A DNA stretch of 64,000 nt from Saccostrea cucullata. Its lineage: Eukaryota. Below, piece after piece: positions 25,401 to 40,400 of the stretch. The stretch is from the NCBI RefSeq assembly GCF_032062105.1, contig NW_026936150.1, forward strand, positions 186,001 to 250,000, in the 5' to 3' direction. How positions within the stretch are numbered: position 1 is the stretch's first letter; each line of letters starts with the position of its first letter. Position numbers: made by a program.

Positions 25401-28400
25401 GGTTCTCAAACAGAGATAGGGAAAGGGAACTGGAGGCCCAGATTAGACGGGAAATGGGGAAAATTGAAATGCATGACGGGAATTTCAAACCATGGGGAAG
25501 AGATGCTTATCAGAATCCCTCACATCATCCGGTAAGATTGCATCATGGACATTTGCTGTCGTCTGCTTTTTAACAACGACGTCATTGTTTTTGTAGCAAT
25601 TTCATCGTATATCCGTTTAGCCATTTCATTCTTTTCATGTAGTTTAGAGGGCAACATGGACTTCAAGATTTTTCAAATGGACAATCAGAGCCAATTTGGC
25701 TAAATGGATTGGATTTCAGAAGAGTTTTCCTTCTCTAAAATTGACTGCTATGGAAATATATCTTCTCTTCACATATCATTCAATAAAATTTCAAGCGCTC
25801 ACAGCCACAGGGAAAGTAAACTAAAGTGGAATTCCTAGGTTGCCTTAAAACCAGTGTACAGGTTAATGCAAGGAGATTTGGATGGATGATACAAAAGATA
25901 AATATTAGCCATATCTTAGTTTCGTAAGCGCTAGTTGATTTCCTTTTATTGATACATGGACCGTTAATCACCGTTTGATTATTTTCTTTACGTGGTCGTT
26001 GTCATAGCATGATGTACCTCAATGAAAAGATCCTTTGAGAAAATTTTCTGAGCGAGCTTACAATACGATTGAACTCCATTTCAGTCCGAGGAAGAAAATT
26101 ATATGCGTTTTCTTTGTGTACATTCGTTTCCAAATCCGCGTAAAAATCAAACACAAAAAGATTTATTAACATAACCGACGATATAGCATTATGCTTCACA
26201 CATTTTGATGATAAATTTTTGCAGAAGTAAAGGCAAGGCACGGAAGTTAACAAAAATTATAAAACAGCAATTAAATTCTTTAAATCAAATATCAAATAGC
26301 AGTAGAAATGAAAAGAAGATCTTTATATTTTTGTTCCTTTAGGGGATATTAAAATTCGTGATATTTTATGCACTTCATTCATATGTTTGTATAGAACTCT
26401 TTCAAGCTTACATGCAATTATTTATTTCAACCTGGTCTTGGTTCCTTTAGAATTTTATATCAATACTGCCTTTACAGGTTTCACTATTGATTTTACGTGG
26501 TATCTTTTATGAGATTTAGCTTGATATTGGATCTGTCTATCGATATCCCAAGTAATCGATACGGCTTCCATTTGTAGGGCCCTAACTATGTAAATGACCG
26601 CTACTTACGCCCAGAGGAGCGCCAGGTTTGATTCTTTTCGTGGGCTTATGTTCTTTACACGTCATCTGTATATAATCTCAGTCATTTACTCATCATCTCA
26701 GTCATTTATCCATAAATCATTTCAAAAAAGGCTTAATTTAGAAACATTTATATAAAAAACATTTTTGTTTCATATTCCATATCGTTTATCACGCATCTTC
26801 ATTATGCTTTGTGCAGGTTCGTTTTTTCGCATATTCATCAAGTGTATGCTTTATTTCACGAATGCTTGTATTCAGAAGTACTTTGTCGACGTTATTTCTT
26901 TGAAATTTGAATGCACAATTTTTGGATCAGTTGCAAAATTATTCAACATTTCTTCTTAAGAGAACTGAAAGTAAATCATGTCTGTGTGGAGTGGTTGTTG
27001 TAAACAGTTTGCATTGTGATGTCTTTTACTCTGAAAGTTTTTCTATTCGTAATTTACTAATTTATCAAGTGGAGAATCATATTTGAAATTTGAATGTTTA
27101 AAAAGTATGATTTTTCAGTTACGACATCAACTGGACTACGACAAGTCTCCTGTGACTGAAAGCAAACCCGAGAACCAGGTTTGTCACTGAAGCCCAGCTT
27201 AGGTGTTGTGACCTGTACAATTCTCCTCAAAACAATAGCATACATTATTCAGATCATTCAAAGTGCATGTTGGTGTGATTAAAGAAAGCAAGACCTTGCT
27301 TTTACCTAATTAACAGATATATTTTTGGATTTTCTCAGGCACCATGTTTTTTCTTTAGTGTTGAATTATAAATTCTTGTTTGAGAACATTTACATACCTA
27401 CGTTCAAAGAAGCAGGTGCCCTTGAGTAACCAATAAATGCAGTATAAATCAAATAAATCTTTATTTAGACAAACTTCCTATCATGTTTACTCACCTTACA
27501 TTCTCATTTCTTCCACAATCTATACAAATAAGACATATAAGGTGTATTGACATTGAATTTAATTCTGCAAGCGATACAATGTCATATATCAAAATGAGTC
27601 CAATAAATACATGACCGTCTTAAATTGAATGTTACATATCTTACTCTGTAAAAGATTTCACATTTTTTAACAATTAAAATTGACATCTTTTTCATTATTC
27701 TCTGTCTCTTTGTTCATTTTCTCCGGTTATACTCTTAAAAATCAGATTTAAGCTAAGTAAATAAAATAAGAATGGTGTTCTAGTGTCTGCATTAAATATT
27801 CTTGTAGGATGTTAGGCCCCAGACTGAACCAGCCCTTCCAATTCGGTCTGATTTCGAGGTATATAATCCGTATCATCGTGTGACGCTTTGGTACACAAGG
27901 ATGAATCTATGAACTGTCATGTTTTTGTGTGTATGGTTCACGACGGTTTTGCACTTGAATCAAAGTATAAATATATTCATTGTGTACTTTCCAAACTCTT
28001 GAGCATCAAACTGTATATATATTTATTTCTAGCACATCGGGTATCACCGGGGCGTGTGCCAGTATATTGTATGCATCTGTATAGGAATGGCGTGTATACA
28101 GAACAAATTATCAACATTGTACCTTTATTTCTATTGATATGTTTTGCAGCCCAAGTCTACCAACAGTGGTGTCTACCTCTTTGTCAGAACCAATAAACTC
28201 GCCAAGGCTGATGTTGTTAAAGCGCTTCAGGAGGGACGTTCTGTTCTCGCCAACTCGTACGGACAACTCAAAGGCATCGCCACTAGTAGAGAGGTAGGCC
28301 TTACTTCAGTATCAAGACATAGATAATTAAGGTACATTGGTGTGATTTTGCAAGCAATAATGCATTCCCAAGTTACTGGACGAAATACTGCTGGAAAAGC

Positions 28401-37400: not shown

Positions 37401-40400
37401 GAATATAGGCAAATCCGCCAGGACATTCACAGACGCATCGAAAACCTTCCGTTTTATACTAACAGGTTCAAACCGGTTAGTTTCCTGTTTACCTTGGATG
37501 CTTACGTGTAAACTTCCGGTAAGCCGAGGACAGTCTTTGTAAACCCCCTGTTTACGTTGGATACTTAGTGTAAACTACCTGATATGTACGTGTTACCTAG
37601 GAGATTAAGATTTCTTGACCGAATTCTTGACAGCACGATAGTAAAGTGGACTATATTATATAAAGAGTAATTATGCTTTTTAATCTATTCTGAGTCATAA
37701 TATATTTCCTACACTGCAATTCACATTTCTAAGTAGAGTAGAATAGTGTTGCAAACACAGCGTAGAATTCATCAGGAATGTCACCCGTCCAGTGTTAAGA
37801 CAGCCCCACGTTGTATCTGTTGTTTTCTGTAGTCTAGCTGTACACCGCTGGTGTAGGGGTGTGTTGTTGGATGGAGAATGGGAACCAGTTTATCTCCAGT
37901 GTCTCCTTAGTGCTCATATTAACATAAATCATGTGATATCTATACATTTGTTATCATTATTATACAGAAATCAATATTTTGTATTACGTTTTATTAAATA
38001 TATTCTGATATTGCTAGTTTTTCTTTCTCTGACATTTTATTCTAAGAAGAAAAGAAAATAACATGTAAGCACTGTCTATTTATGTATACAAAAGCAGTTA
38101 AAGGGGAGGGTGAGCTATTTGGTACGATGATAAAAATGATGTATTCAAGAGGTATAATGAAAAATATAGGGATAACGAACAGTATTCAAGGTCAAAAGTC
38201 CATCAAACATTACAAAATACATGTAAGAGCAGAAAAAACACGGACCTCCAAAACATTAGAGCTGGGATCAGCTGCCATGGAGGAGTGAGCATCCCCTGCT
38301 GACCGGTCACACCCACCGAGTGATCCTTGTCATGATCAGAAAATAACAGAAAAATATGTCGTCAATTCACTTTATAAATAATGGACTTACAATTCGTATG
38401 AAAAACATCACTCAGCATTTGACTCAATGATAAATTGTATTTGCTGACAAGGTCATTGTATCGACCACAGAACTTACGAAATGATAGCTTTAAACGAGAC
38501 ACCTGATATTCTTGTTTGCCAATAATTTACCTAGTTTCAAAAATTGTTCATCCGCAGAGCATGCTCTTGCATACCGAATCAACTGAGATATATAAACTCC
38601 GTATGCAGGTGATGAAGGTATATTGCTGCATGAGTAAGGAAAGTTGACGATAGAAAAGTTGGAAGTCATCACGTTTATCATATAGCTTGGTTGTTAGATT
38701 ACCATTAACGTCTTTTTCAAGTCAAATATCCAAGTATGAAGCAGATGTGTCAGACTCTGTCTGTGGTATCTTTTATCTCAAGCTCACCAGGATATATCGT
38801 ATCGACACAAGAATGAAAATTATCATTTGTTAATTGACAATACGTCGTCGATATATCTTAATGTCGACTTGAAGGCCACAGAAAGTGTTTTCCTCCTTTC
38901 CAAAAAAGAACTTAACACATAATTTGATGTGAATAAAAGTATATTCAACAACAATCATACAATACATTTAACTTGGAACATGCGCAAAAGCAGAATAAAA
39001 GAACATGAATATCTTAACAAGATAAAACATTCGTCTATAGAGCTCAGTTCTCAAAATATTTACAAAGTGACAGATAATATTACTTATCAGACATTTCTCT
39101 GTCTGAATAGAATTCAGTAAATTCAATTCATCTTTACAAATGTATAATTCAATTGCATTACATGAAGTATTCATAATCATATACAAATAAGTCAGTCATA
39201 TACAGGGATTCGAAATAAGTCCAAAGAGGCATAATTATCGATGGTTGCTTACGTGAAATTTGGAATACTGTATTTGTCAATTATTCTCATAAACCTTATT
39301 TTACTAAACATAATTTTATGCTTTGCATGTTTTTATCTTGTAAAAAATGTTATAGAAACAACATTGAGACAAAACATATCAATATAAAATAAATTTCTTC
39401 GCACAAAAATAACAGAACAAAACAAATATATTCAACGCAAAAGATTATCAGTGCGTGTCGTTATGGTATTGCATTAGTGTAGTTCGTTATTTATATCGAA
39501 ATTATGTTCAAACTTCCTTAACAAGCTGTTAAAATATTTGTTTACCAAAATGATTTATTACATTAAAAGCACTGTTTAACAGTATAAAAAGAAGCACCAT
39601 ACTTCCATTTTCTCAATGAATATCTAATTACATAATTGAATTTTACGAGAGTTGTTCATTTCTGCCATCTGGTGTTCTTCTTATTTCCTTCTCTTCACCG
39701 GAAGTTCGTCTTCTCTGTAAGATGACAACCAAAACCAGGACTACGCCAATCAAACCAGCGGTAGCCGGAAGTAGTGTATAGAGCATGGAAGAATTCTGGT
39801 CTCTTTGCTGACCAGACTGGAAATATGAAATTACAGATCTAGATTGCAGTCCTTTTATATGTTCCTCTTAATGTCCATTTTATTAACGCATTTAAAAAGT
39901 GAACTGTAAAAAGGCAATGTTTCTGCCTATCTTTAAGTTTTGGCAAAATTATTTACACTATTCTTAATCTCGATACCAGCAAAAAATTAATACAATAATA
40001 TATATTTCAAAAATAAATATTTACATTTCTAAATGAACTAAGCTTCTTCCAGGGTTGGTAAAGAACCAAGTCATCTGTATCCCTTTTTCTTCTTCCTAAA
40101 ATGTATAAATATCAGCTGCAGTATGTGTAATGTAATAAAATAATAGCTCAGCAATCTACAAATATGGAAATAAAATATTCGAGCGCTATACCCCAAATAT
40201 TTAATCTCTTATTTCAATTAATAAGTGTATGTTCCTAATGTAAGCAGGCACTTCTTCTGCAACAAAAAATAGCTCTTCCGGGCCCGAAACGGAGATTAAC
40301 AATAACTTTGCGTTTTTATATTAAAAACTGCAATTTTGTGTATTGAAATAGTTCGATCAATATCTAATGCAATAAAAAAAATCGCAAGACCCAGGTAGTT

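What the first reader, a model, noticed from the sequence alone, without database searches (positions are those of the whole stretch)
28150..37511. Two intact paralogous 3-exon DUF1330 endings but only one exon for the domain's first half
Seen: cassettes A and B have identical intron positions and phases, both begin I(N/Q)LLEG in phase 0, both are intact, yet their proteins are strongly diverged, which implies old duplication under selection. I could not find a counterpart of exon 28150-28293 between 29.6 and 36.2 kb. Inference: alternative terminal cassettes chosen by polyadenylation or splicing; the first DUF1330 repeat would be a chimera of a constant N-half and a variable C-half.
Basis: partly seen in the sequence, partly recalled or inferred. 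Interest (0 to 1): 0.75.

Follow-up and report, generated by a model that had tools for sequence, protein, structure and literature searches.

The report
Duplicated three-exon ending, one shared exon
An animal-type gene for a two-domain DUF1330-like protein carries two old, still intact copies of its last three exons but only one copy of the exon before them, so it probably makes two protein versions by choosing one ending, although no RNA data were available to show this.

Summary
The sequence observation holds. Cassettes A (28759-29551) and B (36194-37511) are three-exon paralogues on the + strand. Their intron positions and phases are identical (0 / 1 / 1), all splice sites are canonical, and both reading frames are open. 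The proteins share 75 of 178 aligned residues. Synonymous sites are saturated (pS 0.87 against pN 0.39), and cassette B keeps GC3 of 0.56-0.65 in DNA of about 30% G+C. B has therefore been kept as coding sequence. B1 has no Met and follows a stop codon directly, so it needs an upstream phase-0 coding exon. Exon E0 (28150-28293) is the only one found. tblastn, a shuffle-controlled Smith-Waterman search, a DUF1330 profile and three exon-structure scans found no second copy in 29.6-36.2 kb or elsewhere in the window. Two cautions apply. The searches lack power for a short, poorly conserved exon, because the true pair A3/B3 is not detected either. E0 on its own was not recognised as a DUF1330 first half in any of eight results from five kinds of test. 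Alternative terminal cassettes sharing E0 is the best reading (about 0.5), but no transcripts were available to confirm it. If true, it is a new member of a known kind.

The parts
24911..25531 (+). Candidate first coding exon (ATG, 207 codons, coiled-coil-like, phase-0 GTAAGA donor at 25532). Its membership in this gene is inferred only.
   Evidence: Open frame 24833-25573. ATG position and phase-0 donor. G+C 0.45 and GC3 0.49. Only sub-threshold Pfam hits. No second copy in the window.
28150..28293 (+). Exon E0, 48 codons, phase 0 in and phase 0 out. Presumed N-terminal half of the first DUF1330-like domain, present once in the window.
   Evidence: Splice sites ttttgcag|CCC and GAG|gtaggc. 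G+C 0.50 against 0.33 in the intron after it. No paralogue found. Not recognised as DUF1330 on its own.
28759..28981 (+). A1: C-terminal half of domain 1 plus linker. Starts INLLEG in phase 0 and ends in phase 1.
   Evidence: hhalign of A1+B1 against bacterial DUF1330 gives E about 1e-3 over the C-half.
29111..29347 (+). A2: most of the second DUF1330 domain (strand-helix-strand-strand-helix).
   Evidence: Pfam PF07045 at 27.7 bits on the ORF and 22.3 bits on the exact exon. Own profile E 5.6e-8. AlphaFold2 model with pLDDT 73.5. Best PDB fold matches are dimeric ferredoxin-like proteins.
29463..29551 (+). A3: last strand of domain 2 and the TGA stop.
   Evidence: AATAAA at 29768 and 29785, but such hexamers occur at background density.
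29552..36193 (.). Stretch between the cassettes (6.6 kb, about 30% G+C) with retroelement fragments. No E0-like exon was found in it.
   Evidence: Repeat map, G+C islands, searches, exon-structure scans.
35401..36124 (+). Retroelement-tail copy that ends 70 nt upstream of the B1 acceptor.
   Evidence: Self-blastn gives 84% identity to 38164-38892 (inverted) and 79-85% to copies at 2.7-3.3 and 55.5-56.1 kb.
36194..36440 (+). B1: paralogue of A1. Starts IQLLEG in phase 0 directly after a TAG, has no Met, and ends in phase 1.
   Evidence: Own profile ranks it 3rd of 2,984 ORFs, E 0.45. Atlas leads include DUF1330 clusters at 0.78-0.79.
36773..37012 (+). B2: paralogue of A2 (second domain).
   Evidence: 40% identity to A2. 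tblastn E 5e-17. Own profile E 0.017. No Pfam hit.
37399..37511 (+). B3: paralogue of A3, with extra residues and the TAA stop.
   Evidence: Same split Pro codon (C|CT) and the same EY start as A3.
38160..38900 (-). Inverted copy of the same retroelement tail, downstream of B3.

Best explanation
This is one + strand gene for a protein with two DUF1330-type (dimeric alpha+beta barrel) domains, whose 3' part was duplicated in tandem long ago. Transcripts carry exon E0 (28150-28293) and whatever lies upstream of it, possibly the ATG exon at 24911-25531. They then finish with one of two homologous three-exon terminal cassettes.

In the proximal isoform, the E0 donor at 28293 joins the A1 acceptor at 28759, and the mRNA ends after the A3 stop. 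In the distal isoform, cassette A and its 3' end are skipped, and the same donor joins the B1 acceptor at 36194, removing a 7.9-kb intron full of retroelement debris. Each cassette supplies the C-terminal half of domain 1, a linker, all of domain 2 and its own stop codon. The two isoforms would share only the part up to E0 and differ in about 200 residues.

Shown here: the exon anatomy, the paralogy, the coding constraint on both cassettes, B1's need for an upstream phase-0 coding exon, and the absence of a second recognisable E0.

Inferred: that E0 is the N-half of domain 1, that B is joined to E0 (in cis, or in trans as at mod(mdg4)), and that the choice is made by competition between splicing and polyadenylation.
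For: - Intron positions and phases are identical, and all splice sites are canonical.
- The paralogy is strong: E 1e-19 and 5e-17, with 0 of 200 shuffles reaching the scores.
- The duplication is old and both copies are constrained. pN is 0.39 against pS 0.87. Identity by codon position is 94/178, 122/178 and 57/178.
- Cassette B's 197 full codons are all open. Chance openness in local composition is 3e-7. A neutral copy would keep all three exons stop-free with probability 0.11 after 10% of its sites were hit, and 0.02 after 20%.
- B's GC3 of 0.56-0.65 lies far above the non-coding G+C of about 0.30.
- B1 has no Met, and a stop codon immediately precedes it.
- E0's phase-0 donor fits both phase-0 acceptors.
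- E0 has no second copy. The best tblastn hit elsewhere has E 0.31. In 29552-36193, 90 of 200 shuffles matched or beat the best Smith-Waterman score.
- The candidate ATG exon also has no second copy.
- The structure scans of 29552-36193 gave nothing credible. They found 2 internal-exon candidates of 48 and 51 nt and 4 ATG-exon candidates of 63-81 nt. They also found 34 stretches open for at least 36 codons before a phase-0 GT, none exon-like in G+C except A's own 3' flank and retroelement fragments.
- The C-half assignment of A1/B1 is weakly supported. hhalign against bacterial DUF1330 gives E 1.3e-3 and 7.9e-4. In the own profile, B1 ranks 3rd and A1 8th of 2,984 ORFs.
Against: - No RNA evidence of any kind was available.
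- E0 alone is not recognised as a DUF1330 N-half:
  - Pfam gave no DUF1330 hit.
  - hhalign gave E 0.21 and about 0.6.
  - The own profile ranked it 1121st of 1,912 scored ORFs.
  - The Atlas features were nearest to AlkZ-like clusters at 0.92 with only 144-159 shared features.
  - AlphaFold2 on the single sequence gave one long helix with pLDDT 80.7, not strand-helix-strand.
- The similarity searches have little power for a short diverged exon. The true pair A3/B3 is missed by tblastn at E <= 0.5, and 168 of 200 shuffles reach its score.
- The A1 acceptor looks at least as strong as the B1 acceptor, so skipping A would need regulation.
- Poly(A) hexamers after both stops occur at background density: 6 and 3 in 1.5 kb, against 3.1 per kb for the window.
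- B2 is further from the DUF1330 consensus than A2 (13.0 against 30.5 bits). This could reflect relaxed constraint.
Confidence: 0.5

Rival explanations
1. B is the 3' part of a separate tandem-duplicate gene. It would have its own promoter and 5' exon(s) that are too diverged, non-homologous, outside canonical splice rules, or lost from this assembly, and so went unrecognised.
For: The searches cannot see short poorly conserved exons: A3/B3 is missed. E0 itself is invisible to DUF1330 profiles, so a diverged counterpart would be invisible too. A 6.6-kb stretch rich in retroelements separates the cassettes, and insertions could have displaced or destroyed an exon.
Against: No candidate of adequate length, G+C and splice signals lies in 29552-36193. 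A counterpart conserved like exon pairs 1 and 2 would score far above the highest shuffle score of 53: those pairs scored 176 and 143 over 74 and 78 residues. The 207-codon candidate ATG exon has no second copy either. The retroelement copies (72-85% alike) are younger than the A/B split, where synonymous sites are saturated. B therefore needed a 5' partner long before they arrived.
Confidence: 0.2
2. B is a 5'-truncated partial duplicate that no longer makes protein. It would be a recently silenced relic that has not yet picked up a stop codon or frameshift.
For: No upstream exon of its own was found. A retroelement sits 70 nt from the B1 acceptor. B2 has drifted from the family consensus: it has no Pfam hit and scores 13.0 bits against 30.5 for A2.
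Against: All 197 full codons are open, all 5 of B's splice sites are canonical, and every indel relative to A is in frame. GC3 is 0.56-0.65 in a background of about 0.30 G+C. The simulation allows only a short neutral period, with survival probability 0.11 at 10% of sites hit. The constraint signature, pN 0.39 against pS 0.87, requires expression for nearly all of the time since duplication.
Confidence: 0.15
3. B is used, but not as a straight alternative to A after E0. For example, another upstream phase-0 donor (such as 25532) could join B1 and skip E0. Or both cassettes could sit in one mRNA through a phase-0 GT inside A3 (read from the sequence at 29519).
For: The phases would allow it: there is a phase-0 donor at 25532, and a GT at a codon boundary inside A3 is visible.
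Against: Either product would carry a half domain without its first half, or would truncate A's second domain before its last strand. That makes little structural sense for a strand-helix-strand-strand-helix-strand fold. No test supports either product.
Confidence: 0.1

Closest known systems
Genes with constant 5' exons and alternative 3' exon sets: Drosophila lola and mod(mdg4)
   Same: Common upstream exons are joined to one of several homologous downstream exon sets, each with its own stop. This gives isoforms with a constant N-part and a variable C-part. For lola I saw the abstract of 10.1101/132027 (up to twenty isoforms, common exons). [quoted passage not shown] Both come from the listing.
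   Different: Here there are only two cassettes, each of three exons, in a DUF1330-type protein. The switch point would fall inside a small globular domain rather than between domains. No transcript evidence exists, so cis- or trans-splicing cannot be told apart.
Mutually exclusive exons derived from tandem exon duplication
   Same: Homologous, frame-compatible, tandemly arranged coding units of ancient origin would substitute for each other, often swapping part of a domain. I saw the abstracts of PMC9013439, PMC9741552, PMC8373072 and PMC4465641. That the Dscam exon 4 and 6 clusters encode half Ig domains is recalled, not checked.
   Different: Those events are usually single internal exons of equal length that rejoin a common downstream exon. 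Here the unit is a multi-exon terminal cassette with its own stop and 3' end, and the two units differ in length by 8, 1 and 8 codons across the three exon pairs. A crude search found no complementary 'docking' element.
Bacterial single-domain DUF1330 proteins (PF07045), including CmaL of Pseudomonas syringae
   Same: A2 and B2 align over the whole domain with bacterial DUF1330 proteins at 24-29% identity. A2 hits two plasmid genes annotated as DUF1330 and the Pfam model. The predicted fold matches dimeric ferredoxin-like proteins. Plasmid records annotate CmaL as a coronamic acid biosynthesis protein. A reference title names it as a DUF1330 member needed to make L-allo-isoleucine (Worley et al. 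2013; I saw only the reference-list entry in PMC4228168).
   Different: The bacterial proteins have about 95 residues, one domain and no introns. This gene has spliceosomal introns, two domains in tandem (probably an internal pseudo-dimer), a long loop insertion in domain 1, and possibly a long N-terminal coiled-coil exon. No function can be transferred.

Membership tests
DUF1330 (Pfam PF07045) | Match to the family profile at or above the curated score (23 bits) | tested here: inconclusive
   The A2 reading frame 29101-29367 scores 27.7 bits, E 3.7e-6. The exact exon 29113-29346 scores 22.3 bits, E 1.7e-4, just under the cut-off. That is 1 of 7 frames hit and 1 of 5 exons. B2, A1, B1 and E0 had no hit. 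The joined-exon test was left out.
DUF1330 (Pfam PF07045) | Second domain of both cassettes is homologous to bacterial members over the full domain | tested here: met
   A profile of 16 bacterial sequences gave A2 E 5.6e-8, B2 E 0.017 and B1 E 0.45, the three best of 2,984 window ORFs. The alignment with two bacterial members is. tblastn hit two genes annotated as DUF1330.
DUF1330 (Pfam PF07045) | Ferredoxin-like strand-helix-strand-strand-helix-strand fold of the dimeric alpha+beta barrel type | tested here: inconclusive
   The AlphaFold2 model of A2 (2-row alignment) has pLDDT 73.5 with elements E5-11, H17-34, E39-45, E59-66 and H69-77. The last strand lies on A3. In Foldseek against the PDB, 0 matches reached E <= 0.001. 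The best E was 0.015, and the top ranks were nearly all dimeric ferredoxin-like proteins. 3lo3_A had TM 0.62 and probability 0.99. That 3lo3 is a DUF1330 member is recalled, not checked.
DUF1330 (Pfam PF07045) | Domain 1, C-terminal half (A1/B1) matches the second half of the family profile | tested here: inconclusive
   hhalign of A1+B1 against bacterial alignments gave E 1.3e-3 and 7.9e-4, probability 19-25%, covering strand 3, helix 2 and strand 4. The own profile gave B1 E 0.45 and A1 E 15. hhalign against A2+B2 gave E 0.059. The Atlas gave leads only, at 0.78-0.80.
DUF1330 (Pfam PF07045) | Domain 1, N-terminal half (E0) matches the first half of the family profile | tested here: not met
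   Pfam gave no DUF1330 hit at E <= 10. hhalign gave E 0.21 and 0.6, aligned to the wrong half. The own profile ranked it 1121st of 1,912 scored ORFs. The Atlas was nearest to AlkZ-like clusters. AlphaFold2 gave a single helix. Only length, position and phase fit: 41 residues after the first 7, directly before the LLEG motif.
Alternative terminal exon cassettes (alternative last exons) | One upstream donor is compatible in phase with the first acceptor of each cassette, and each cassette has its own stop | tested here: met
   The E0 donor is phase 0. The A1 and B1 acceptors are phase 0. The stops are TGA at 29549-29551 and TAA at 37509-37511.
Alternative terminal exon cassettes (alternative last exons) | Each cassette is followed by a functional cleavage and polyadenylation site | tested here: inconclusive
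   AATAAA or ATTAAA occurs 6 times in the 1.5 kb after A3 (first at 29768) and 3 times in the 1.5 kb after B3 (first at 37993). The window average is 3.1 per kb.
Alternative terminal exon cassettes (alternative last exons) | Transcripts joining the shared exon to each cassette | not testable with these tools
Tandem-duplication-derived mutually exclusive exons | Homologous neighbouring units that keep the frame, with exactly one included and a return to a common downstream exon | tested here: not met
   Homology and frame are met. But the units are terminal, with no common downstream exon, and they differ in length. Inclusion of exactly one is not testable.

The most novel reading that the evidence does not exclude
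An ancient, selectively kept pair of multi-exon terminal cassettes lets one gene swap one and a half domains at once. A single small ferredoxin-like domain would be built from a constant first half (E0) and either of two second halves that are only 45% identical. The second DUF1330 domain would be exchanged with it. This could happen in cis, or by trans-splicing from a promoter of B's own as at mod(mdg4). It would be a natural experiment in fragment complementation within a dimeric alpha+beta barrel, in an animal protein family with no studied member.
Probability: 0.45. Interest if true: 0.55.

Novelty: new member of a known kind. Interest (0 to 1): 0.4.

Why it matters
If the E0>B1 junction exists, this locus shows a partial duplication of a gene's 3' end fixed as an isoform switch rather than as a second gene. 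The switch point would lie inside a compact domain. That constrains how far the two C-halves can diverge while still packing against one N-half. The structured part of A1/B1 is 23 of 45 identical, against 18 of 48 for the matching part of domain 2 (my count), a difference too small to count as significant. It would also give a first handle on animal DUF1330-type proteins. The 9 papers listed out of the 10 that hold the term are, by their titles, all about bacteria or bacteria with plants. If the junction does not exist, the locus is an ordinary tandem duplicate with an unannotated or lost 5' end.

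Tried and rejected
- Complex prediction of E0 and B1 as two separate chains gave no verdict (score 0.03, mark 0.34). It counts neither for nor against.
- A composite element or transposon capture of B was rejected. The inverted retroelement tails at 35401-36124 and 38160-38900 are 84% alike, but each is 79-85% alike to other copies in the window. They are therefore independent insertions of an abundant family, and they are much younger than the A/B split.
- A docking or selector RNA pairing between the intron after E0 and the stretch upstream of B1 was not found. 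The simpler test found a longest complementary run of 11 nt, which 85 of 100 and 35 of 100 shuffles reached.
- A DUF1330 profile was used to look for a hidden first-half exon. It is uninformative, because the positive control E0 itself is not detected.
- Pfam at E <= 10 on the exact exons, the PDB sequence search with A2 (1 hit, E 0.15, a telomerase chain taken as noise), and the Atlas search on E0 (AlkZ-like, low shared-feature count, taken as chance) gave nothing usable for E0.
- AlphaFold2 on E0 alone gave a single helix. I give it little weight, because it was a 48-residue fragment folded without an alignment, but it does not support the strand-helix-strand reading.
The single-protein scan gave only 2 loci, so the bacterial set was taken from plasmid records instead.
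No animal orthologue or second genome could be compared.
- Supplementary files of papers were not consulted.

Full report
**Setting.** The window is AT-rich, with 0.28-0.45 G+C per 2 kb. It is full of retroelement debris and its genes carry spliceosomal introns. I do not take it for human. The only N run is 357-501, far from the finding, and I left it alone.

**Anatomy.** Reading the + strand gives these exons:
- E0, 28150-28293: acceptor ttttgcag|, donor GAG|gtaggc, 48 codons, phase 0 at both ends.
- Cassette A: A1 28759-28981, A2 29111-29347, A3 29463-29551, stop TGA.
- Cassette B: B1 36194-36440, B2 36773-37012, B3 37399-37511, stop TAA.

A1 and B1 start in phase 0 with INLLEG and IQLLEG. 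The first intron of each cassette splits a codon after its first base (G|AT and G|AG). The second intron splits a Pro codon (C|CT in both). In the protein alignments these breaks fall in the same columns. Exons are 0.40-0.50 G+C, and the introns inside the gene are 0.20-0.38.

**Paralogy and age.**
- tblastn finds A1/B1 at E 1e-19 (41%) and A2/B2 at E 5e-17 (40%). Shuffled queries reach these scores in 0 of 200 trials.
- The short third exons are alignable by eye and by MAFFT but fall below detection.
- Per exon, 33 of 73, 31 of 78 and 11 of 27 aligned residues are identical.
- Counts summed over exons, with no sequences joined, give pN 0.39 and pS 0.87. Identity is 53%, 69% and 32% at codon positions 1, 2 and 3.
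- Third positions are thus at about random level while second positions are conserved. The duplication is old, and both copies were under purifying selection for most of the time since.

**Is B alive?**
- All 197 full codons are open. Chance openness is 4e-5 in B's own composition and 3e-7 in the local non-coding composition.
- Every indel relative to A is a whole number of codons.
- All five of B's splice sites are canonical.
- GC3 is 0.56-0.65 against about 0.30 G+C around it.
- A simple decay simulation keeps all three exons stop-free with probability 0.31, 0.11 and 0.02 after 5%, 10% and 20% of sites are hit.
- So B is, or was until very recently, translated.

**What B needs.** The B1 frame opens exactly at the acceptor, because the TAG of 'atag' precedes it, and it holds no Met. 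Its conserved sequence can therefore be translated only after an upstream coding exon that ends in phase 0.

**What the cassettes encode.**
- A2 matches Pfam DUF1330: 27.7 bits on the ORF and 22.3 bits on the exact exon, against a cut-off of 23.
- A2 hits two plasmid genes annotated as DUF1330.
- A2 and B2 align with two bacterial members over the whole domain. The split Pro codon and the EY that opens A3 and B3 continue that alignment.
- A profile of 16 bacterial members ranks A2, B2 and B1 as the three best of 2,984 window ORFs, with E 5.6e-8, 0.017 and 0.45. A1 ranks 8th.
- An AlphaFold2 model of A2 (pLDDT 73.5) has strand-helix-strand-strand-helix. Its best PDB fold matches are dimeric ferredoxin-like proteins, but none reaches E <= 0.001.
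- hhalign places A1/B1 on the C-terminal half of the bacterial domain (strand 3, helix 2, strand 4) at E about 1e-3.
- Each cassette therefore carries a C-half of a diverged first domain, a linker and a full second domain.

**E0.** Its position directly before the LLEG motif, its length and its phase fit the missing first half. No test recognised it as such:
- Pfam gave no DUF1330 hit.
- hhalign gave E 0.21 and about 0.6.
- The bacterial profile ranked it 1121st of 1,912 scored ORFs.
- The Atlas features were nearest to AlkZ-like clusters.
- AlphaFold2 on the fragment gave one long helix.

The direct test would join E0 to A1 or B1 and search or fold the product. 'First half of the domain' is therefore an inference.

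**Is there a second E0?**
- tblastn of E0 against the whole window finds only itself. The next best hit has E 0.31, on the other strand at 62 kb.
- The best Smith-Waterman score in 29552-36193, on both strands, is reached by 90 of 200 shuffles.
- The G+C islands in that stretch are all retroelement fragments except one at 34130-34279, which shows no similarity.
- The structure scans find only two tiny internal-exon candidates (48 and 51 nt) and four short ATG-exon candidates (63-81 nt). They also find 34 stretches open for at least 36 codons before a phase-0 GT, none of them exon-like apart from A's 3' flank and retroelement pieces. The same rules recover E0 as a control.
- The candidate ATG exon at 24911-25531, which ends at a phase-0 GTAAGA donor, also has no second copy.
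- The caveat is power. The true pair A3/B3 is missed by the same searches. A first-half exon as poorly conserved as exon 3 would escape, while one conserved like exons 1 and 2 would not.

**Surroundings.** Cassette B lies between inverted copies of an abundant retroelement tail at 35401-36124 and 38160-38900. They are 84% alike, and each resembles other copies in the window just as closely. They are independent, younger insertions and not a vehicle for B. One of them ends 70 nt upstream of the B1 acceptor.

**Conclusion.**
I put it at about 0.5.
- The main rivals are a separate B gene with an unrecognised 5' exon (0.2) and a recently silenced partial duplicate (0.15).
- The closest known systems are genes with common 5' exons and alternative 3' exon sets, such as lola and mod(mdg4) (abstracts seen), and substitutions derived from tandem exon duplication (abstracts seen).
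- The literature search for DUF1330 found 10 papers and listed 9. By their titles, all concern bacteria or bacteria with plants. One reference title names CmaL as a DUF1330 member.
Conservation of this layout in other animals therefore stayed unchecked, and no RNA evidence could be consulted.

Noticed in passing
window 35401-36124 (+) and 38160-38900 (-): Inverted copies of one retroelement tail, 84% alike over about 746 nt, bracket the whole of cassette B. If both arms were in one pre-mRNA, they could pair and loop B out. The downstream arm starts about 650 nt after the B3 stop.
   Followed up: partly
window 24833-25573 (+): A 246-codon open frame has an ATG at 24911, a coiled-coil-like and charged sequence, and a phase-0 GTAAGA donor at 25532. 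It is a candidate first coding exon of the DUF1330 gene, is unique in the window, and gave only sub-threshold Pfam hits.
   Followed up: partly
window about 44700-50000 (+): A degenerate Ty3/gypsy-type retrotransposon has gag-, protease-, RT-, RNase H- and integrase-like frames spread over several reading frames. It also has an 86% direct repeat at 44915-45137 and 49779-49993 that may be its LTRs. It accounts for the G+C rise to 0.43-0.45.
   Followed up: partly
window 40422-43023 (-): Exons of a VWA7-like gene lie on the minus strand, with Pfam VWA7_N at E 1e-15 and VWA_4 at E 7e-10 and 5e-7.
   Followed up: no
window 41338-42000: A tandem array with a period of about 167 nt (4 copies, 63-79% alike) lies inside an intron of the VWA7-like gene.
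   Followed up: no
window 53177-53812 (-): A 211-codon Ser/Thr-rich open frame ends in a hydrophobic stretch, resembling a mucin-like membrane protein. It has no Pfam family.
   Followed up: no
window 28150-28293 (+): Taken alone, the E0 peptide is nearest in protein-language-model features to bacterial AlkZ-like clusters. The score is 0.92, 25 of 30 hits are in that set, but only 144-159 features are shared. I take this as chance, but it is unexplained.
   Followed up: no
window 507-836 (+): A long GA-type simple repeat, read as a run of Arg-Glu codons, lies next to the N run at 357-501.
   Followed up: no
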